Made by a program: the position numbers and the translations under genes. From a virus, in the UHGV virus genome UHGV-0235137: DNA of 40,033 nt; one strand, written 5' to 3'. The first letter of the stretch is position 1; the number at the start of each line of letters is the position of its first letter. Positions 24,342 through 38,242 of the stretch are shown here, one piece after another. The notes below the pieces were generated by a model. That model searched no databases. It worked only from the letters and a program-made list of their open reading frames with translations, and had not been told where the DNA came from.

Positions 24342-25529
24342 ATGGCAGTAGGTGAAATTCAAATTAGTGCCTTGCCTCAAGCAGCCTTACCAATTGACCT
24401 TAGTGATATCTTCCATCTTAAGCAGGGTATTGAGGATAAGAGGTGTACTCTTGAGCAATTACTTGCTCCACACGCAAGCCTAAGAAATAACCCTCATGGT
24501 GTTACTAAGACACAAATTGGTTTAGATAATGTTATTAATGCTCTTCAGTTAGTTGCTGCAAATAACTTATCAGATATTGTTAATGTAGCTGAGGCAAGAG
24601 CAAATCTACAGATTATGTCTTCAGAAGAGGTTAATAACCTTGTCCAGCAACATATTCAGGACAAGAGTAACCCACACAATACAACTAAGGCACAGGTTGG
24701 TTTAAGTAATGTTCAGAACTGGACAACATCTAACCTGTATAACGAAGATGCAGATAAGTATGCTACAGCAAGAGCAGTAAATAACTTGTACAAGGCTGTT
24801 CAGGCTTCTTATCCAGTAGGTACTATCCATCTTTCTATGAACTCTGCAAACCCTTCTACATACTTAATTTGTGGAGGTACTTGGGAGTTAGTTTCAAAAG
24901 GTAGGGCATTGGTTGGCTATGACTCTGATACAAGGCCAGCAGGTTCTGTATTTGGTGCTTCAACTGTCACTTTGTCAGTTAATAATATGCCTCAACACTC
25001 ACACTCTGTGTCTCTCAGTGGTGGTGGTCACACTCATAATGCAACTGTTTCAATCTCAGCTTTTGACTATGGAACTAAGACTACCAACTCTTTTGACTAT
25101 GGAACAAAGACCACTAACACAACTGGTAACCACAATCACGTTGGTAGTGGGTCAACAAGTGCTGCTGGTGCTCACAACCACAGATTGACTTATGAAGCAG
25201 GTGGTGGTCTGTCGGAAAGACCTGCAATGGTTTGGTCTACAAGGAATGACCAATCGTGGTACTCAGCAGATGCTGTCTGCGAAGTCGCTGGTTCGCACAC
25301 CCACTCTTTTAGCGTTACCACTAACACAACTGGTAACCACAATCACACAGTGGGGATTGGTGCTCATAGCCATACAGTTGGTATTGGTTCACATACACAC
25401 AATGGTACTGTGACAGTTTCTTCTTCTGAGCATACACATAGTGGAAACACGAATAGTGTTGGTGGTGGACAAGCTTTCAACATTGAGCAGCCATCCTTCG
25501 TACTGTATGTATGGCAGAGAACAGCTTAA
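24342..25529 (+). CDS. tail fibre protein with C-terminal His-rich HxH repeat domain
   Basis: repeated SHSHS, GHTHN, GNHNH, AHNH, GSHTHS, AHSHT motifs; C-terminal end similar to the next gene. Confidence 0.7.
   Translation: MAVGEIQISALPQAALPIDLSDIFHLKQGIEDKRCTLEQLLAPHASLRNNPHGVTKTQIGLDNVINALQLVAANNLSDIVNVAEARANLQIMSSEEVNNLVQQHIQDKSNPHNTTKAQVGLSNVQNWTTSNLYNEDADKYATARAVNNLYKAVQASYPVGTIHLSMNSANPSTYLICGGTWELVSKGRALVGYDSDTRPAGSVFGASTVTLSVNNMPQHSHSVSLSGGGHTHNATVSISAFDYGTKTTNSFDYGTKTTNTTGNHNHVGSGSTSAAGAHNHRLTYEAGGGLSERPAMVWSTRNDQSWYSADAVCEVAGSHTHSFSVTTNTTGNHNHTVGIGAHSHTVGIGSHTHNGTVTVSSSEHTHSGNTNSVGGGQAFNIEQPSFVLYVWQRTA
25061..25120 (+). repeat. 30-bp tandem duplication inside the tail-fibre gene (encodes FDYGTKTTN twice)
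   Basis: ttttgactatggaactaagactaccaactc / ttttgactatggaacaaagaccactaacac. Confidence 0.8.
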
Positions 25530-25575: not shown

Positions 25576-27633
25576 ATGGCAGATTACAAATTGAGTGAAT
25601 TAAACTCAATCGACACAATCCGTTCAGATGACCTTCTTCATGTCAGAGTTAAAAAGAGACCTGAAATGCTGGGTGATGAAGACCGTCGAATGACCTATCA
25701 AGATTTCTTAGCATCTTTTAAGCTTGAGAGATTTGTTCAGATTGCTGGCAGCACTATGACGGGTGACTTAGGAATTGTCAAGTTACTTTATGGTGGTAAG
25801 GCAGTCTTTGACCCAACAGGTTCTTCTGAGATTACTATTGGGGATGTTTTAAAGACTTTTAAAATTAACGCAAATGGTCTTAAACTAACTATTGCAGATG
25901 CTTCAAGGTCGGCAACTGTTTACCATACTCTGAATAAACCAAGTCCTAATGAGCTTGGGATGAGAACTAATGAACAGAATGATACAAGGTATGCAAGGCT
26001 AAGCGTTGGTAATACATTTAAAGCTAAACAGATTATCACAGTAGATGGTGAAGCATTAGCACTTAAAAATACTTCTGATATGCCATCTTTATATATTAGA
26101 GGTAAAGATTCAGGAGATAGATTAAAGTGGTACGTTGGATTTAACACAGATAATAAACTTGGTTTATCTAATAGTGTTACTGGTACAACACTACTATTAG
26201 ATGATACCGGTATTAACTCAAATAAAAATCTAAATATCACTGGTCAGGTTAAACCCTCTGATTGGTCTAACTTAGATGCTAGATATTTTACTCAGACAGT
26301 AGCTAATCAGAGATTTGCACAGTTAGCTGGGAATAACACTTTTAGTGGCACTAATACGTTTAAAAAAGATGTTATCTTTAACTCAGATGTTCCGGTTGTT
26401 CTTAAGAACTTAACAGCTAATAGACCATTGTATATTCAGGGTAAGGATTACCAGAATACTAGTTTGTGGTTTGTTGGTAAGGGTGGAACTGGTACTGAGA
26501 TTAAATTTTATAACTATGTGACTGATACAGTTTTAGAGTTGTCTGAGACGGCTAGATTTAATAAAACTTTGAAGGTTACTGGACAGGTTCAACCGTCTGA
26601 TTGGGCTAACCTAGATGCTAGATACTATACAGGTTCAGCAGCAAATGCCAGATATATGTATGCGGAAAGAACTGGTGAAGGTGCTGATGAGGGTGCTATT
26701 GCTTGGAATGCTAAGACAGGAGTATATAATGTCAAGACGGGGGGAGCCACATCATCAAATCTTGTACTTCAGTTCTATCAGGGGTCGGGGTCTATCACAT
26801 CTACGCCATCTGCGCAGCTAAGATTTAAATGGGCGAATGGTGGTATGTGGTATAGGACATCAAGAGATGGTAATGGCTTTGAGAAAGGTTGGTCTATGGT
26901 GTACACAACTGCACAGAAGCCAACCCCTTCAGATATTGGTGCATACACTAAAGCAGAAACTGACCAGAAGATTGCACAGGCAATTAGTGACTCTACAGAC
27001 CTTAACAAAATCTATCCAGTAGGCATTGTAACGTGGTTTAACAGTAATGTTAACCCTAACACAGCGTTGCCTGGGTTAACTTGGACGTACCTGAACAATG
27101 GTGTTGGTAGAACTATCAGAATCGCAGCAGCAAACGGTTCAGATGTTGCTACAACTGGTGGTTCAGACTCTGTAACTTTAGCTGTTGGTAACTTACCATC
27201 ACACACTCACAGTTTCTCTGCTACCACTTCATCTTTTGATTATGGTACGAAGGGCACTAATAGTACTGGTGGACATACTCACTATGTAAGTGGTACAACA
27301 AGTGCTGCTGGTAACCATGCTCACCACTTAGGTCTGTTATTAGTTAACGGTGGTGATGCTTTGTACGGGTATACAACCATTGGTAACGGTCTCCCTAGAA
27401 CGCTTGACTGGCTTGATAGAAGAGATAACAAGTTCCCTAACACTAACACAACTGGTGACCATACACACACATGGTCTGGTACTGCAAGCGGTGCTGGTGA
27501 CCATTCCCACTCTGTAGGTATCGGTGCTCACAGCCACACAGTTAGTGGTAACACTGGTAGTACAGGTTCTGGTTCAGCATTTAGTGTTACTAACCAGTTC
27601 TATAAGCTAATGGCTTGGGTAAGAACTGCTTAA
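25576..27633 (+). CDS. tail fibre protein (long), internal ~105-aa duplication and C-terminal HxH domain paralogous to 24342-25529
   Basis: PSDW(S/A)NLDARY repeated; C-terminal SHTHSFS...GGHTHY...GDHTHT...GDHSHSVGIGAHSHTV. Confidence 0.7.
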   Translation: MADYKLSELNSIDTIRSDDLLHVRVKKRPEMLGDEDRRMTYQDFLASFKLERFVQIAGSTMTGDLGIVKLLYGGKAVFDPTGSSEITIGDVLKTFKINANGLKLTIADASRSATVYHTLNKPSPNELGMRTNEQNDTRYARLSVGNTFKAKQIITVDGEALALKNTSDMPSLYIRGKDSGDRLKWYVGFNTDNKLGLSNSVTGTTLLLDDTGINSNKNLNITGQVKPSDWSNLDARYFTQTVANQRFAQLAGNNTFSGTNTFKKDVIFNSDVPVVLKNLTANRPLYIQGKDYQNTSLWFVGKGGTGTEIKFYNYVTDTVLELSETARFNKTLKVTGQVQPSDWANLDARYYTGSAANARYMYAERTGEGADEGAIAWNAKTGVYNVKTGGATSSNLVLQFYQGSGSITSTPSAQLRFKWANGGMWYRTSRDGNGFEKGWSMVYTTAQKPTPSDIGAYTKAETDQKIAQAISDSTDLNKIYPVGIVTWFNSNVNPNTALPGLTWTYLNNGVGRTIRIAAANGSDVATTGGSDSVTLAVGNLPSHTHSFSATTSSFDYGTKGTNSTGGHTHYVSGTTSAAGNHAHHLGLLLVNGGDALYGYTTIGNGLPRTLDWLDRRDNKFPNTNTTGDHTHTWSGTASGAGDHSHSVGIGAHSHTVSGNTGSTGSGSAFSVTNQFYKLMAWVRTA

Positions 27634-30908: not shown

Positions 30909-31208
30909 TTAATCTGCCAGCCTTAAATTAAAATTAACACCAAATTTTTCGCATACTTCCAACATAAACTCAAGAGAGACATTACCAGTGAGATTGATTA
31001 TGTTGGATACACGAGCCTGAGAGATACCACAAATTTTAGCAACTTGCTCTTGAGAAAGACCTCTGGATTTAATCTCTCTCTTAAAACGATGTGCAACGAA
31101 ATCTCTCATTTCGTCTACATCCATTGGACAAATATAACTCTCCATTTCAGCCTCTCTGTCAGCCTCCCAATCATCTTGTGGAGCATAAGGGTCAAAAGTC
31201 TCATTCAT
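30909..31208 (-). CDS. helix-turn-helix DNA-binding protein (XRE/Cro-like regulator)
   Basis: LSQEQVAKICGISQARVSNIIN HTH segment; ATG at 31208 overlaps the upstream stop in ATGAATGA; ORF-track TTG extension to 31238 rejected. Confidence 0.65.
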   Translation of the reverse strand: MNETFDPYAPQDDWEADREAEMESYICPMDVDEMRDFVAHRFKREIKSRGLSQEQVAKICGISQARVSNIINLTGNVSLEFMLEVCEKFGVNFNLRLAD

Positions 31209-31413
31209 CTTTCTTCTTCCGTTTACGTGAAGTGTCAATCAATGAATCTATGTTTGTAGCCCTAACCTTTTCACGTTCATCGTTAAGATAATCGTCAAGA
31301 ACTTTTTCAATCTGTGAATCATCTTGACAGATAACTGTAAAGACTGTAAAGCCGTCTGTATCGTCAATTATCTTACCATAGCCGCTTCTGGGATGTAACT
31401 TTTTAAGAGCCAT
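31201..31413 (-). CDS. hypothetical small basic protein
   Basis: 70-aa ORF translationally coupled to the HTH gene. Confidence 0.5.
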   Translation of the reverse strand: MALKKLHPRSGYGKIIDDTDGFTVFTVICQDDSQIEKVLDDYLNDEREKVRATNIDSLIDTSRKRKKKDE

Positions 31414-31414
31414 A

Positions 31415-31723
31415 TCAAATACCTGTGCAGCTTCTGTTTTCTAAGAAATACTCAACACCATACATAGCTTTTTGCATCAAATCTTCTTTAAACTGAATAC
31501 GATGATTAAGCATAGCCTGTACATCAATATCATCATGGTGCTTCTCTTTAATATTTGCAGATTGCAGGAAATACTCTGCAAGAACACGATACTGATAGTC
31601 AGTTACCTTGTCAGTCATCTCTGTTAAAGACTCTTCAGAGATTGGTTTAAGTAACTCACCATTAGCCAGAGCAACACCTTTAACAATCTGGCAAGTGTCT
31701 TCTGGAACACCTGATAAGTCCAC
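31415..31723 (-). CDS. hypothetical protein (start uncertain; ORF track uses GTG)
   Basis: 102-aa ORF; an alternative overlapping 57-aa ATG ORF with a better RBS exists at 31624-31797. Confidence 0.4.
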   Translation of the reverse strand: MDLSGVPEDTCQIVKGVALANGELLKPISEESLTEMTDKVTDYQYRVLAEYFLQSANIKEKHHDDIDVQAMLNHRIQFKEDLMQKAMYGVEYFLENRSCTGI

Positions 31724-31841
31724 ATTTGGGAGTTCTGTTGCATTGACTGTAAATTCATTGACATAACCATTGCAGCAGCTAATAAAATCTTTTTCATAAT
31801 GACCTCAAAGCTATATTAAATTTTGTATTACATTGGATATA

Positions 31842-31871: not shown

Positions 31872-32229
31872 AGATTTTATAGCTTATTTTGGCAGATTTT
31901 TTATAAGGATACTGCCATCCTTCCATACCAGACCACACCATGCAAAACCAGACTTCACATCACCCTACCGTGCAATACATCACTTAAAAACCCTCTTAGA
32001 AGACTCTTAAGTGATGCTGGTGAGTACACGTTGGTTTATGCTGCTCAGTATACTCACCAAATTTTCTATGTCAACAACTTTATATAAAAGCCCTGATAGC
32101 TATATGTGTTACAAAACAAAAGATTGTGAACAAAACACCCATTGCAAAGGATGTGTTCAAAAGTTTACTTGTGATGTAAGACAATACAAAGACAACTAAT
32201 GCAAACAGAATGATTGTGCTTAACATAGT

Positions 32230-34970: not shown

Positions 34971-35483
34971 TCAACTTAGTTTTGCAAACTCTCCGTGGAG
35001 TTTCATAGCAGCTTCACAGTAAGCTTTATGGGCTTCTTCTTCTGTTATGTATGTCCCTATATGCACTGTCTTGCCATTATGGTTAACCTGTGCTTTCCAC
35101 TTACCAGATTTGCTTCTACTTGTACCTTTCAAGTTTTTTGATGTTCTAGGTTGTCCCCTATTAGACATGTTCTGTTCTTTTGTGGCCTCTCTAAGATTGT
35201 TCCAAGCATTATTCAAACCATCTCCATCTTTGTGGTCAATGTGTTTATCAGGCCACTTACCTGTCATCCAGAACCAAGCAATTCGGTGATTACCTGTTCT
35301 GTATCCTAGAATCTGTGTGTGCATATACACACCAGACCTTGTGCGCTTGATTGCTCCGGCTTTGCTTCCAATAACCACTCTACTACTATGTGGAGGTCTT
35401 CCAATCCATGTTAAGACCCCTGTTTCGGGGTCATAGTCTAACCAAGATTTTAACTGTTCATGTGTGAATCCACAATCCCGCAT
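34971..35483 (-). CDS. HNH homing endonuclease with AP2-like DNA-binding domain
   Basis: HIDHKDGDGLNNAWNNLREAT HNH motif; C-terminal GKWKAQV...HIGTY...EEAHKAY AP2-like segment; directly downstream of the polymerase gene. Confidence 0.8.
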   Translation of the reverse strand: MRDCGFTHEQLKSWLDYDPETGVLTWIGRPPHSSRVVIGSKAGAIKRTRSGVYMHTQILGYRTGNHRIAWFWMTGKWPDKHIDHKDGDGLNNAWNNLREATKEQNMSNRGQPRTSKNLKGTSRSKSGKWKAQVNHNGKTVHIGTYITEEEAHKAYCEAAMKLHGEFAKLS

Positions 35484-38182
35484 CAGTGTACCTCATACCA
35501 CGATTTACCAACCTTACCAGTACCTGTAACAAGCGTTTCTTTCTTAAGACCTAAGTTCTTAGAAGCTTGTCCATAATACCAGTCAGTAACTGCTTTCACA
35601 TCTGCCGTCATACTTTCTGGACATTCCCAACTCGTCTCATCGTGATATGCGCAGAGCAAACGAGCACCAATAGCTGGTTGACGACCATTCAACTTCATCA
35701 AACCTTCGTCAATCATACGACGACAAGCAAGGTTAATTGCCTCATTTTGAATCTGAGCCTCTGAACCCATCAAAAGATAGTTCAACAGTTTGTGTGGAGA
35801 TTTACACCACAACCAAGCTCCAGCAACCTTTACAAAACCACCTTTAGAGATTGCAGCAGTCTTACCAAACACCTCTTCAAGTGCCTTCTTAGTTGCTTTG
35901 TAGTCAGCTTCCAAGTCATCTAGCAGCTTCTTAATCTTAGGCAAACGGATAAAGTAAGTCTGCTTAGTCAGTGCACCTTCCTGAGTAGTTGCAGCTTTAA
36001 TCGTCTTAGCAAACTTCTCATCACCTGCACCGAACAGCAGTGCATAGATACCATTCTTAGCTTTCTTACGACCCTTGCTAATCTCATGGAGAAGGTTCTC
36101 ATCCTGAGTAGCTCGACAAGTCAAGATATCCTGCTCATCATTCAAGCTAAAGTAAATACTGTTCAGTGTGTGTGCATCAGTCCCTGAATAGACAACGTAA
36201 AGGTCGTTCTCAGAGTCATAGCGAAGGTACTTATCAATCTCTGGGTTGAGGTACTCATCAAAGTGTTTGCAGTAATAGCGTCCATCTTCTTGACGAATAA
36301 ACTCAATCTCTTCTTTACCTTGCGTTACCGCTTTGGTGAAGTCTTTGTCACCCATAAAGTTACAAAGAAGAACTAGCTGGGCTGAGTTCATGTCTACAGA
36401 GACAACGTTAGTACCTTCTTCACAAATCCACACTGCCCTCATTGGTTCCCCATAGACAGCAGCACCAGACGGTACGTTTACAATACCATATTGTGTCATA
36501 CGTCCAGTTGAAGTACCAAACACCATTGCACCAGCACTAAGGCGACCATCAGGACGAATCTGGTTCAACCAACCTTTTTCATCATCCTTTGAGTTCTCAA
36601 TAGTTCTGCGTCGGTGCATCAAAGTATAGTACTTAGCAATTTTCTGTCCAAGCTCACCTTCAATCGTATCATAAGATGACTCAGTAAGTTTTGGTGAAGT
36701 ACGGATTAAGCAAGGTTCAAGCAAATCTGTGTACTTCTTAACAGACCAGTTATGCTCAATGTACTGGACACCTTCATGTTCAACATAACTCAAACCACAC
36801 CGTTCAACCATCTCCTGCCATTTAGGATGCTTTGTAATCATCTTTTTGTTGTCTTTGAAGCGACAAACCTTAACAGGACGACCATCAGAGTCTTTCTTAT
36901 AGTTCCAGTCATCTGGAATCCAACCAACTGATTTCAAGTAGTCTTTAACAACTGCTACCTGAGTCATACGAGAAACTTCGAACTCAATTGGTGTATATGG
37001 TGCATCAATCAAACCTGTGTAGCGACTTGACTCAAGTTCAAAGTGGTTAACAACATGACTGTTATAGTACTTCACAGTTTTAACTGTTTTTACTGGCTTC
37101 CAGTCTTTGCATTTCTTACCAATCTTTGCGTTCAACTCATTGCAAATTGCACGAGCATCCTTCATTGCTACAAAGCCTTCCTTGTACTCTTCACCAGTTA
37201 CAGAGTTGGTTGGTGTATAGCAATTCCGCTTTTCAATGTTAAAAATCTTGGTAGTTGGTTTACCAAATGGCTTGATTTCATATGTCTGCATCTCACCATT
37301 ACGTACCTGCTGACGATACTTTGTCTTAGGGTACTTAGTAATTCTCTTCAGTCCATCTGCATGACCGAATGCTTCAACATACTCATTCCAAGCTTTTGCA
37401 AATTCTTCTCCAGTAACTTTACCTTTGGTCTTAATAGTTGGTGGAAGGTGTGGTTCAACTTCTGAAGCAAGCTCATTAGTCAACTTGTCAAGTTCCTTTA
37501 CATGGAACTCCATAAGTTCTTTATCAGCTTTCCAACCATTAATAGCTTGTTGACTCATCCAGAAAGATGTTTCTTTAGCTCGCATGTAGGTTTCATAAGT
37601 ATCTACGCCACACTTCTTCAGCTTAAGATATTCATTATCCAGTGCACGTTTAGTTTTGGCGTTAATACGGATATCTTCCACAACACGAGTGAATATTTCT
37701 GCATTCCACACACCCCAATGTTCAATCTCTGGTTTACGGACACCAACACGAGCACCCCATGCTGCCAAGCCATGAGCACCCTTATAGCCCTTTGGAGTTG
37801 GTCTATCCATCCACTGAACACGAGACTGGATAAGAGAATCCTGAAAGAAATTACTCCACGGCTTACACTTTGGATTATCAAAGTTCCACAAATCAGGTGC
37901 AATGTGATTGAAAACCCACCAGTCATATCCCAGACCATTATGGATGCAAAGTCGTTTTGCCTTTAACGCAAACTCAACACCTTCACGCAAGCCACCCTTA
38001 ATGTACTTGGTATACTTGTGACCGAGGATAGGCTCATCTGTAAAGACCCATACAGGTGGCTCTTCATCGTCAGATTTATAGTCTGCGAAAGCCATTACGT
38101 GCACTTTAGTGAACTCAAGGAGTAAACCATCAGTTTCTGTATCACCAACTAAATGTAAGTTTTTAAAATCTACGTTTTCCAT
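35483..38182 (-). CDS. DNA polymerase, family A (Pol I / T7 gp5-like) with 3'-5' exonuclease domain
   Basis: exo motif DTETDG; motif A-like SVDMNSAQL; motif B-like KKAKNGIYALLFGAG; motif C YHDE; start set at the ATG (38182) preceded by AGGGAG. Confidence 0.9.
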   Translation of the reverse strand: MENVDFKNLHLVGDTETDGLLLEFTKVHVMAFADYKSDDEEPPVWVFTDEPILGHKYTKYIKGGLREGVEFALKAKRLCIHNGLGYDWWVFNHIAPDLWNFDNPKCKPWSNFFQDSLIQSRVQWMDRPTPKGYKGAHGLAAWGARVGVRKPEIEHWGVWNAEIFTRVVEDIRINAKTKRALDNEYLKLKKCGVDTYETYMRAKETSFWMSQQAINGWKADKELMEFHVKELDKLTNELASEVEPHLPPTIKTKGKVTGEEFAKAWNEYVEAFGHADGLKRITKYPKTKYRQQVRNGEMQTYEIKPFGKPTTKIFNIEKRNCYTPTNSVTGEEYKEGFVAMKDARAICNELNAKIGKKCKDWKPVKTVKTVKYYNSHVVNHFELESSRYTGLIDAPYTPIEFEVSRMTQVAVVKDYLKSVGWIPDDWNYKKDSDGRPVKVCRFKDNKKMITKHPKWQEMVERCGLSYVEHEGVQYIEHNWSVKKYTDLLEPCLIRTSPKLTESSYDTIEGELGQKIAKYYTLMHRRRTIENSKDDEKGWLNQIRPDGRLSAGAMVFGTSTGRMTQYGIVNVPSGAAVYGEPMRAVWICEEGTNVVSVDMNSAQLVLLCNFMGDKDFTKAVTQGKEEIEFIRQEDGRYYCKHFDEYLNPEIDKYLRYDSENDLYVVYSGTDAHTLNSIYFSLNDEQDILTCRATQDENLLHEISKGRKKAKNGIYALLFGAGDEKFAKTIKAATTQEGALTKQTYFIRLPKIKKLLDDLEADYKATKKALEEVFGKTAAISKGGFVKVAGAWLWCKSPHKLLNYLLMGSEAQIQNEAINLACRRMIDEGLMKLNGRQPAIGARLLCAYHDETSWECPESMTADVKAVTDWYYGQASKNLGLKKETLVTGTGKVGKSWYEVH

Positions 38183-38242
38183 TTTTACTCCCTCTAAAAT
38201 CATTAACCTCATACATTACTGCAAAAAATTATAAAAAGCAAG

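What the first reader, a model, noticed from the sequence alone, without database searches (positions are those of the whole stretch)
31624..31797. Alternative overlapping small ORF with signal-peptide-like N-terminus
On the - strand an ATG at 31797 preceded by GAGGT opens a 57-codon frame (MKKILLAAAMVMSMNLQS...) that overlaps the GTG-initiated 31415-31723 ORF in another frame and ends 6 nt before an in-frame ATG of that ORF at 31618. The first gene of this operon may therefore be miscalled by the ORF track.
Basis: seen in the sequence. Interest (0 to 1): 0.35.

Follow-up and report, generated by a model that had tools for sequence, protein, structure and literature searches.

The report
Frameshifted copy of conserved phage gene
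The small "alternative" ORF is the front end of an ordinary, conserved Felix O1-type phage gene for a small exported protein that a one-base deletion has split in two in this genome; it is a broken gene, not a new overlapping one.

Summary
On the - strand, an ATG at 31797 with a good Shine-Dalgarno (GAGGT, 4-nt spacer) opens a 57-codon frame that overlaps the GTG ORF 31723-31415.

The two ORFs are halves of one gene. The window is Felixounavirus DNA. In Felix O1 (ORF87/Felix01p159, PHROG 4332) and at least 211 of 215 relatives, the same ATG opens a single 127-aa ORF. The window has one C at 31749 where the 11 aligned relatives have CC, which shifts the frame after codon 16.

- The 57-aa product is 16 genuine signal-peptide residues plus 41 out-of-frame residues.
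- The GTG "gene" is residues 26-127 of the real protein. It has no Shine-Dalgarno.
- pN/pS is 0.09 in the fused frame and about 2 in the other two frames.
- The out-of-frame tail has earlier stops in 10 of 11 relatives.
- No other gene among about 48 shared genes is broken.
- Three assemblies of the same metagenomic phage carry the deletion, so it is probably a real, recent null mutation.

The intact protein is a Sec-exported three-helix protein with two invariant cysteines. Its function is unknown. Its SUSP1 ortholog is "Not Fit" (dispensable) in a knockdown screen.

This is ordinary and of low interest.

The parts
31415..31797 (-). Whole disrupted gene: the frameshifted allele of Felix O1 ORF87 / Felix01p159 (PHROG 4332). 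It is 383 nt here and 384 nt (127 aa plus stop) in relatives.
   Evidence: Alignment with 5 and then 11 relatives. Annotated as a single 384-nt CDS in Felix O1, Meda, AYO145A, JLBYU32, KhF1, EF202P1, LTH02, REP11, ASO1A, LinBro and TP1. Full-length PHROG 4332 match of the intact protein, E = 3e-67.
31749..31749 (-). The lesion. There is a single C where all 11 aligned relatives have CC (TTTACCAGTC becomes TTTACAGTC). This deletes one base of codon 17 (Pro, CCA).
   Evidence: Re-inserting one C restores a 127-aa ORF that is 126/127 identical to the Felix O1 protein. The 27-mer carrying the deletion is absent from IMG/VR, JGI metagenomes and GTDB genomes. The deletion is present in all three ENA assemblies of this phage.
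31750..31797 (-). Genuine 5' end: start codon plus codons 1-16 (MKKILLAAAMVMSMNL), which form the n- and h-regions of the Sec signal peptide.
   Evidence: Identical to relatives except A13S, a G-to-T change at 31761 that is the only substitution private to the window.
31624..31749 (-). Out-of-frame tail of the 57-codon ORF: 41 codons (QSMQQNSQ...LKSL) plus the TAA stop. It is not a conserved coding frame.
   Evidence: The same frame has earlier stops in 10 of 11 relatives. Pooled pN/pS in this frame is 1.99. The 57-aa product has no PHROG match and is not called as a gene anywhere in the 15-billion-protein collection.
31415..31747 (-). Intact downstream reading frame: codons 18-127 of the true protein plus the TGA stop. 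It covers the end of the signal peptide (VNA, then TE) and the whole mature three-helix domain.
   Evidence: 100% identical at protein level to Felix O1 and EF202P1 over residues 17-127. Differences from relatives here are nearly all synonymous.
31721..31723 (-). GTG used as the start by the ORF track and by the gene callers of the public assemblies. It is really the internal codon Val26.
   Evidence: No Shine-Dalgarno (duplex +0.2 kcal/mol). It aligns to V26 of the 127-aa protein. The 102-aa call is on record for the three ENA contigs.
31616..31618 (-). In-frame ATG (Met61 of the true protein), 5 nt after the stop of the 57-codon ORF. It is a possible but weak re-initiation site that would give a signal-less 67-aa C-terminal fragment.
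   Evidence: The Shine-Dalgarno duplex is only -2.4 kcal/mol, about the background average. Re-initiation is inferred and was not tested.
31802..31806 (-). Shine-Dalgarno GAGGT, 4 nt upstream of the ATG.
   Evidence: Duplex with the 16S rRNA 3' end is -6.3 kcal/mol. A ribosome-binding site is annotated just upstream of the start codon in phage Meda.
31842..31870 (-). Sigma-70-like promoter TTGACA-17-TATTTT, which serves this gene and the genes downstream of it.
   Evidence: Consensus scan, 10 of 12 matches. The homologous site is annotated as a promoter in AYO145A and ASO1A. Function was not tested.
31201..31413 (-). Next gene (70 aa, PHROG 4473, homolog of Felix O1 ORF86). Its ATG lies 1 nt after the stop of the disrupted gene (TGA-T-ATG), so it may lose translational coupling in this allele.
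   Evidence: Its own Shine-Dalgarno duplex is -3.8 kcal/mol. Loss of coupling is an inference.

Best explanation
The locus is a naturally frameshifted, probably null, allele of a conserved Ounavirinae gene (Felix O1 ORF87 / Felix01p159, PHROG 4332).

The intact gene:
- It is transcribed from a sigma-70-type promoter, in the middle period in Felix O1.
- It is translated from the GAGGT/ATG at 31797.
- It encodes a 127-aa precursor. Residues 1-20 are a type-I Sec signal peptide (MKK, a hydrophobic core, then VNA with cleavage before TE).
- The roughly 107-aa acidic mature part is a three-helix bundle with two invariant cysteines (C36, C124). These probably form a periplasmic disulfide.

In this uncultured phage, one C of a CC dinucleotide at 31749 has been lost. 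The expected consequences are:
- Ribosomes starting at the true ATG read 16 correct codons, then 41 out-of-frame codons, and stop at 31624. They make a 57-aa hydrophobic nonsense peptide without the signal-peptidase site.
- The remaining 110 codons are intact but have no ribosome-binding site of their own. The exported protein is therefore not made, or only in traces.
- ORF finders report the leftovers as a 57-codon ORF plus a GTG-started 102-codon ORF.

The loss is tolerable because the gene is accessory.

Shown: the homology, the deletion, frame selection, the start signals, the integrity of the other genes, and the presence of the deletion in three assemblies. Inferred: export, the disulfide, the null phenotype, and that the deletion is biological rather than a read-level error.
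For: - One gene in relatives: the same ATG opens a single 384-nt CDS in all 11 relatives fetched. tblastn with the N-terminal 40 aa reads in frame across the junction in 211 of 215 Felixounavirus records. The full protein matches in 258 of 259 records.
- The lesion: a single-base gap at 31749. Restoring it gives a protein 126/127 identical to Felix O1's.
- Selection: pN/pS is 0.093 in the fused frame and 1.99 and 2.12 in the other two. In the mature part, 33 of 42 variable sites are at third codon positions.
- Recent event: the copy differs from EF202P1 by 4 nt (3 synonymous, 1 non-synonymous), with no further damage downstream.
- Not general poor quality: of about 48 genes shared with phages DE7 and P54, only this one is broken.
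- Not an assembler artefact: SPAdes (NODE_777), MEGAHIT (k141_97125) and scaffold_445 all carry the single C.
- Start signals: -6.3 kcal/mol at the ATG and +0.2 at the GTG.
- Exported protein: signal peptide, A20 and both cysteines are invariant across Felixouna-, Susp- and Mooglevirus at 30-34% identity, and are kept in more distant members. In the AF2 model (pLDDT 85), residues 1-19 are disordered and the rest forms three helices.
- Expressed and dispensable: Felix O1 ORF87 is maximally transcribed at 25 min (PMC3185647, Table 3). The SUSP1 ortholog AVU07_agp037 is 'Not Fit' in CRISPRi-ART (PMC11879866, supplementary file 16).
Against: - The three assemblies very probably come from one read set. 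The scaffold's N-run begins exactly where NODE_777 ends, and one record name carries BioSample SAMD00114966. They therefore do not give independent read support.
- SPAdes k-mer coverage is only 6.9.
- No reads were available to count C against CC.
- The gene is otherwise almost universally intact and under strong purifying selection, so a null allele in nature is somewhat unexpected.
- The only substitution private to the window (31761) lies 12 nt from the deletion. That could also point to a local low-quality patch.
- Export, the disulfide and the null phenotype are inferred from sequence rules only. No signal-peptide predictor or model coordinates were available.
- 'Not Fit' in the SUSP1 screen is weak evidence, because even the DNA ligase scored 'Not Fit'.
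Confidence: 0.75

Rival explanations
1. Sequencing or consensus error. The phage really has CC at 31749 and an intact 127-aa gene, and the split into two ORFs exists only in the low-coverage metagenomic assemblies.
For: - SPAdes k-mer coverage is 6.9 (record name).
- The three assemblies are probably re-assemblies of the same reads, and they disagree at two other positions, 31139 and 37733.
- A private substitution lies 12 nt away.
- The gene is intact in at least 211 of 215 relatives.
- The rest of the gene shows no decay.
- The one other broken copy in GenBank (MG969407.1, UNVERIFIED) is clearly error-ridden.
Against: - Three different assemblers all give the single-C path, so the k-mers with the deletion are in the reads and dominate.
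- The context is only a 2-nt run, not an error-prone homopolymer (one search lists the runs).
- No other frameshift occurs in about 40 kb and about 48 genes. This is unlike MG969407.1, which has at least 4 indels in this one gene.
- From general knowledge, Illumina indel errors are rare and would not form a majority at one site.
Confidence: 0.18
2. Programmed or leaky recoding. Ribosomes slip -1 within the 57-codon frame, for example on U_UUA at codon 16 (31753-31750) immediately before the lesion. That would give MNL-T-VNA..., a P17T near-wild-type precursor, so the allele would still deliver exported protein.
For: - The required shift is -1.
- A Z_ZZN tetramer (T_TTA) sits exactly at codon 16, and A_AAG tetramers lie at codons 3 and 40.
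- The downstream frame is fully intact.
Against: - No X_XXY_YYZ heptamer occurs anywhere in the frame.
- There is no SD-like stimulator upstream of the slip site (sequence).
- The downstream RNA fold is not significant: z = -1.79, and 12 of 200 shuffles fold as well.
- No homopolymer run is long enough for transcriptional slippage (the longest is A5).
- The two-frame arrangement is not seen in any other public sequence searched here, so it is not conserved as programmed frameshifts are.
- Slips at codon 3 or codon 40 would destroy the signal peptide or the N-terminus and C36 of the mature protein.
Confidence: 0.04
3. A genuine alternative or overprinted small gene. The 57-aa peptide with a signal-like N-terminus would be a functional product that overlaps a separate GTG- or ATG-initiated gene.
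For: - A strong Shine-Dalgarno and ATG.
- The peptide has two hydrophobic segments, with Kyte-Doolittle maxima at residues 4-14 and 38-48. It could insert into the membrane.
- The stop lies 5 nt before an in-frame ATG, which resembles a coupled gene pair.
Against: - The arrangement exists only in this phage.
- In relatives the ATG belongs to the long frame.
- The tail frame has earlier stops in 10 of 11 relatives and pN/pS of about 2.
- There is no family match, and no such product exists among 15 billion proteins.
- The GTG has no Shine-Dalgarno.
Confidence: 0.02

Closest known systems
Felix O1 ORF87 / Felix01p159 (NP_944938.1); PHROG 4332, 'unknown function'
   Same: - Same start codon and Shine-Dalgarno.
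- Same synteny: DNA ligase, then this gene, a 70-aa PHROG 4473 gene, an HTH regulator (PHROG 1373) and a PHROG 4116 gene.
- About 97% nucleotide identity.
- The restored protein is 126/127 identical.
   Different: The window's copy lacks one base at 31749 and cannot encode the full protein. The family itself has no known function.
Ordinary frameshift pseudogenes / split ORFs in phage genomes and metagenome assemblies
   Same: - A single-base indel turns one conserved ORF into two overlapping leftovers.
- Gene callers pick the first downstream start codon.
- There is no decay elsewhere, so the event is recent.
   Different: Nothing distinctive. The only mildly unusual point is that the lesion is in a 2-nt run rather than a long homopolymer.
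Programmed -1 frameshifting (E. coli dnaX; tail assembly chaperone G/GT of tailed phages)
   Same: Two overlapping frames with the downstream one at -1, and a shared start codon.
   Different: There is no slippery heptamer, no stimulatory element and no conservation of the two-frame layout. In relatives the frames are simply fused.
Small exported accessory proteins of lytic coliphages, e.g. T4 Sp and Imm and T5 Llp (superinfection exclusion). This comparison is recalled from general knowledge as a functional analogy only.
   Same: A small, non-essential protein expressed before late genes and targeted to the cell envelope by an N-terminal signal.
   Different: - No sequence or fold similarity was detected.
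- Llp is a lipoprotein, and this family has no lipobox.
- A role in exclusion is pure conjecture.

Membership tests
PHROG 4332 / Felix01p159 family | Full-length sequence match to the family profile | tested here: met
   The intact protein matches PHROG 4332 over residues 1-127 of a 126-position profile, E = 3e-67. The window's DNA encodes residues 1-16 and 18-127 in two frames. tblastn of relatives' proteins covers residues 16-127 at 97% identity.
PHROG 4332 / Felix01p159 family | Conserved gene neighbourhood (ligase upstream; PHROG 4473, HTH regulator PHROG 1373 and PHROG 4116 downstream) | tested here: met
   The same order is found in Suspvirus and Mooglevirus.
PHROG 4332 / Felix01p159 family | Uninterrupted ORF of about 124-127 aa (a functional member) | tested here: not met
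   The 1-nt deletion at 31749 splits the ORF. The window's copy is a disrupted allele, not a functional member.
Type-I Sec signal peptide (exported protein) | Positively charged n-region, hydrophobic h-region of about 10-15 residues, and small residues at -3 and -1 of the cleavage site | tested here: met
   Tested by rule only. The motif is MKK + ILLAAAMVMAMNL + P-V-N-A then TE. In other genera the site is ASA, AAA or AYA, and A20 is invariant in 31 sequences. Residues 1-19 are unstructured in the AF2 model. No dedicated predictor was available. In the window's 57-aa product the cleavage site is lost.
Bacterial lipoprotein signal (lipobox) | [LVI][ASTVI][GAS]-C at the end of the h-region | tested here: not met
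   Felixounavirus proteins have no Cys within residues 1-35. The Cys at position 7 in some Mooglevirus members follows I-A-L, which is not a lipobox.
Programmed -1 ribosomal frameshift site | Slippery heptamer X_XXY_YYZ in the zero frame | tested here: not met
   None occurs in 31797-31624.
Programmed -1 ribosomal frameshift site | Stimulatory element (a downstream stable structure or an upstream SD-like sequence) | tested here: inconclusive
   The downstream 91 nt fold at -26.2 kcal/mol, z = -1.79, and 12 of 200 shuffles fold as well. No SD-like motif is visible upstream.
Programmed -1 ribosomal frameshift site | Conservation of the two-frame arrangement in related genomes | tested here: not met
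   At least 211 of 215 relatives have one continuous frame. The sequence carrying the deletion is absent from three public collections.
Overprinted / overlapping functional gene | The alternative frame stays open and is under purifying selection in relatives | tested here: not met
   Earlier stops occur in 10 of 11 relatives. pN/pS is 1.99.

The most novel reading that the evidence does not exclude
The most novel reading not excluded has two parts. First, the frameshifted allele may not be null. Low-level -1 slippage on U_UUA at codon 16, directly before the lesion, could yield a P17T near-wild-type exported protein. Alternatively, the 57-aa peptide with two hydrophobic segments could have acquired a membrane activity of its own. 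Either would make this a natural example of expression tuning or de novo peptide birth in a wild phage. Second, and separately, the intact family (Sec-exported, disulfide-bonded three-helix bundle, confined to the Ounavirinae, with no detectable relatives among 1.84 billion cluster representatives) could turn out to be a new kind of envelope-acting accessory factor, for example in superinfection exclusion.
Probability: 0.04. Interest if true: 0.4.

Novelty: already known. Interest (0 to 1): 0.1.

Why it matters
It matters mainly for annotation. This is a clean example of how a single-base indel makes mechanical ORF lists and gene callers report a truncated, wrongly started gene (102 aa from a GTG with no Shine-Dalgarno) plus a tempting "alternative" ORF. 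All three public ENA assemblies of this phage carry the wrong 102-aa call.

The correct annotation is one pseudogene, or one frameshifted CDS, at 31797-31415.

Biologically it adds one small point. The conserved exported protein of Felix O1-like phages can be lost in a wild phage population, which agrees with knockdown data from SUSP1 showing it is dispensable in culture. The function of this family remains open, but this window does not make that question more tractable.

Tried and rejected
- **Alternative overlapping gene.** Rejected. The frame is not conserved: 10 of 11 relatives have earlier stops and pN/pS is about 2.
- **Programmed frameshift or transcriptional slippage.** Rejected as a designed mechanism. 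There is no heptamer, no significant structure, no long homopolymer and no conservation.
- **Independent occurrences of the deletion.** Exact 27-mer scans of IMG/VR, JGI metagenomes and GTDB genomes found nothing.
- **The identical 102-aa product on a Logan contig (SRR20141769).** This looked like an independent case. It is a contig-end artefact that begins with an untrimmed Nextera adapter downstream of the lesion site, in a phage only 94% identical.
- **Function from sequence.** No significant Pfam or NCBIfam match (sub-threshold hits only). PHROG 4332 is 'unknown function'. The PDB sequence profile search gave nothing below E = 0.1.
- **Function from fold.** Foldseek against the PDB gave only generic three-helix bundles with E > 0.6. 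Against BFVD only the protein's own family matched. The afdb50 library was unavailable.
- **Exhaustive profile search of 1.84 billion representatives.** It gave 9 hits. Three are the family's own clusters, three more are short relatives (two full-length ones keep the signal peptide and both cysteines), and three are long multi-stretch proteins, probably spurious.
- **General low sequence quality as the cause.** Rejected. No other shared gene is broken.
- **C36-C124 distance.** It could not be measured in the model because no coordinates are returned.

Full report
**1. Observation**

On the - strand, GAGGT (31806-31802) is followed after 4 nt by an ATG at 31797. This opens 57 sense codons (MKKILLAAAMVMSMNLQS...), ending at TAA 31626-31624.

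It overlaps the ORF-track entry GTG 31723-31415 (102 aa), which lies in the -1 frame. An in-frame ATG of that ORF (31618) follows the TAA after 5 nt.

Length alone is not remarkable. The same 3.5 kb contains 35 ORFs of at least 30 aa, several of them longer out-of-frame ones. The start signal is strong, however:
- ATG 31797: anti-SD duplex -6.3 kcal/mol, top 9% of 553 local start codons.
- GTG 31723: +0.2 kcal/mol, so no Shine-Dalgarno at all.
- ATG 31618: -2.4 kcal/mol, about average.

The GTG frame also stays open upstream of the GTG, back to a TGA that overlaps the Shine-Dalgarno.

**2. What it is**

The window is Felixounavirus DNA (Felix O1-like myovirus). About 260 GenBank phages match at 93-97% identity.

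In Felix O1 (ORF87, Felix01p159, NP_944938.1) and in every other annotated relative fetched, the same ATG opens one 384-nt CDS encoding 127 aa: MKKILLAAAMVMAMNLPVNATELPNVDLSG...RSCTGI.

The alignment shows a single gap. The relatives read TTTACCAGTC and the window reads TTTACAGTC, so one C of a CC pair is missing at 31749, within codon 17. It follows that:
- The 57-codon ORF is 16 genuine codons plus 41 out-of-frame codons.
- The GTG ORF is residues 26-127 of the real protein.
- Putting the C back restores a 127-aa ORF that is 126/127 identical to the Felix O1 protein.
- The only substitution private to the window is A13S (G to T at 31761), 12 nt from the lesion.

**3.

- Across the window plus 11 relatives, pooled pN/pS is 0.093 in the fused 127-aa frame. 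It is 1.99 and 2.12 in the other two frames.
- In the mature part, 33 of 42 variable sites are at third codon positions.
- The frame of the 57-codon tail has earlier stop codons in 10 of 11 relatives.
- tblastn with the N-terminal 40 aa, which spans the junction, is in frame in 211 of 215 Felixounavirus records. At least one of the other four (BPS17L1) is intact by the full-length search.
- The 57-aa product matches no PHROG and is not in a 15-billion-protein collection.

**4. Real mutation or error?**

The window's coordinates match ENA ERZ28526551 NODE_777_length_42991_cov_6.88 (SPAdes-style record name). Over 18.6 kb the window is identical to ERZ27316425 k141_97125 (MEGAHIT-style record name). 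It is nearly identical to ERZ28657901 YACH19-1_SAMD00114966_METAG-scaffold_445.

- All three contigs carry the single C, and all three carry the 102-aa gene call.
- They differ from one another only at 31139 and 37733.
- The scaffold's N-run starts where NODE_777 ends. They are therefore probably re-assemblies of one low-coverage read set.
- This excludes an assembler artefact but does not exclude a read-level one.

Several points argue against poor sequence quality. Of about 48 genes shared with phages DE7 and P54, only this one is broken. The context is a 2-nt run, not a long homopolymer. By contrast, the only other broken GenBank copy (MG969407.1, 'UNVERIFIED') has at least 4 indels in this one gene, two of them in A5 runs.

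The deletion-bearing 27-mer is absent from IMG/VR, JGI metagenomes and GTDB genomes. A Logan contig with the identical 102-aa call is an artefact of an untrimmed Nextera adapter at the contig end.

The downstream 110 codons show no decay: the copy differs from EF202P1 by 3 synonymous changes and 1 non-synonymous change. The lesion is therefore very recent if it is real. I put a real mutation at about 0.75-0.8 and an error at about 0.18-0.2.

**5. The intact protein**

- It has no significant Pfam or NCBIfam family. It matches PHROG 4332 ('unknown function') over its full length.
- The family is small. There are 32 clusters at 90% identity, all 116-127 aa long. Those that carry a source name are Ounavirinae phages, and tblastn finds the gene only in Felixouna-, Susp- and Mooglevirus-type phages.
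- An exhaustive profile search of 1.84 billion representatives adds only three more short relatives.
- At 30-34% identity between genera, the invariant features are MKK, A20 at the end of a small-x-small site (VNA, ASA, AAA or AYA), C36, G47-E-L-x-K-P52, and C124 near the C-terminus. The two full-length distant members keep the signal peptide and both cysteines.
- AlphaFold2 with 31 sequences gives pLDDT 85. Residues 1-19 are unstructured. Three helices (31-45, 55-86, 93-121) are predicted at pLDDT 94-99 for most blocks.
- Fold searches find only the protein's own family.

I infer a Sec-exported periplasmic three-helix protein with one disulfide. Export and the disulfide are inferences from standard signal-peptide rules, not measurements.

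From the literature:
- Felix O1 ORF87 is maximally transcribed at 25 min, in the 'middle' period, with its neighbours (PMC3185647, Table 3).
- The SUSP1 ortholog AVU07_agp037, which the authors map to PHROG 4332 and Felix01p159, is 'Not Fit' in the CRISPRi-ART screen (PMC11879866, supplementary files 8 and 16). It is therefore dispensable in culture, although that screen flagged only 19 of 138 genes.

**6. Mechanism in this genome (inferred)**

- Transcription from the TTGACA-17-TATTTT site (31870-31842; annotated as a promoter in AYO145A and ASO1A).
- Initiation at the ATG at 31797.
- Frameshifted read-through to 31624. This gives a 57-aa peptide that keeps the hydrophobic core but has lost the VNA cleavage site. 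By chance it contains a second hydrophobic stretch at residues 38-48.
- The mature domain is not translated, apart from possible weak re-initiation at Met61 (31618). That product would lack the signal peptide.
- The next gene (ATG 31413) normally starts 1 nt after this gene's stop, so it may lose translational coupling.

**7. Recoding considered**

Restoring the frame needs a -1 shift.
- There is no X_XXY_YYZ heptamer. Only tetramers occur: A_AAG at codons 3 and 40, T_TTA at codons 5 and 16, and A_AAC at codon 51.
- The T_TTA at codon 16 sits right before the lesion, and a slip there would give a P17T precursor.
- However, there is no stimulator. The fold z-score is -1.79, and 12 of 200 shuffles fold as well.
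- No run is long enough for transcriptional slippage, and the two-frame layout is not conserved in any relative.
- Trace-level leaky expression cannot be excluded. A programmed mechanism is very unlikely.

**8. Verdict**

The locus is a frameshifted allele of an already catalogued hypothetical gene. The correct annotation is one disrupted CDS at 31797-31415. It is of low interest (0.1). Its value is as an annotation caution and as a small data point that this conserved exported protein is dispensable.

Noticed in passing
window 31977-32017 (- strand): A 19-bp hairpin (some G-U pairs) with a 3-nt loop lies between two sigma-70-like promoters: 32074-32047 (TTGACA-16-TATACT) and 31870-31842. Fold z = -3.2, and 1 of 200 shuffles folds as well. 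The homologous place is annotated as a rho-independent terminator in phage ASO1A, although no T-run follows the stem here.
   Followed up: partly
window 32080-32226 (- strand): A 48-aa very hydrophobic ORF lies directly after the DNA ligase gene. It matches PHROG 22006 (unknown function) over its full length, and the corresponding gene is noted as 'membrane protein' in Citrobacter phage Maleficent. It is a second small envelope-targeted product just upstream of the exported-protein gene.
   Followed up: partly
window 30909-31238 (- strand): The start of the HTH regulator is uncertain. The ORF track gives a TTG start (109 aa) that overlaps the 70-aa gene. GenBank relatives annotate either a 330-nt or a 300-nt CDS for the same gene.
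   Followed up: no
L019/L021 (Logan SRR20141769_5967) 1-19: This public Logan contig begins with the Nextera mosaic-end adapter AGATGTGTATAAGAGACAG. The truncation it causes produces a spurious 102-aa gene call identical to the window's GTG ORF. It mimics an independent occurrence of the frameshift.
   Followed up: yes
window 31139 and 37733: The three ENA assemblies of this phage disagree at these two positions only (T/G and T/C). The cause is either low-coverage consensus noise or within-sample polymorphism.
   Followed up: partly
L024 (MG969407.1, Salmonella phage GE_vB_BS, UNVERIFIED) 200-640: This is the only other broken copy of the gene in GenBank. It has at least 4 indels, including two A5-to-A4 losses and a garbled 20-nt stretch, typical of a poor-quality sequence. 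The similarly named record MW006475.1 (GEC_vB_BS) is in frame across the N-terminal 40 aa that span the junction.
   Followed up: partly
window 25576-27630 (+ strand): The distal tail-fibre gene is only 63-72% identical to relatives in its C-terminal two thirds, while neighbouring genes are 97-99% identical. It shares a roughly 35%-identical C-terminal module with the adjacent fibre gene (24342-25526). This is probably a host-range determinant exchange.
   Followed up: no
window 35483-38212 (- strand) and the adjacent gene (L020 6241-6753): The DNA polymerase gene is one continuous ORF here and in P54, but it is annotated in two pieces with an intervening gene in phage DE7. An HNH/AP2-domain endonuclease gene sits immediately downstream in this phage. 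This suggests variable homing-endonuclease content around the polymerase gene.
   Followed up: no
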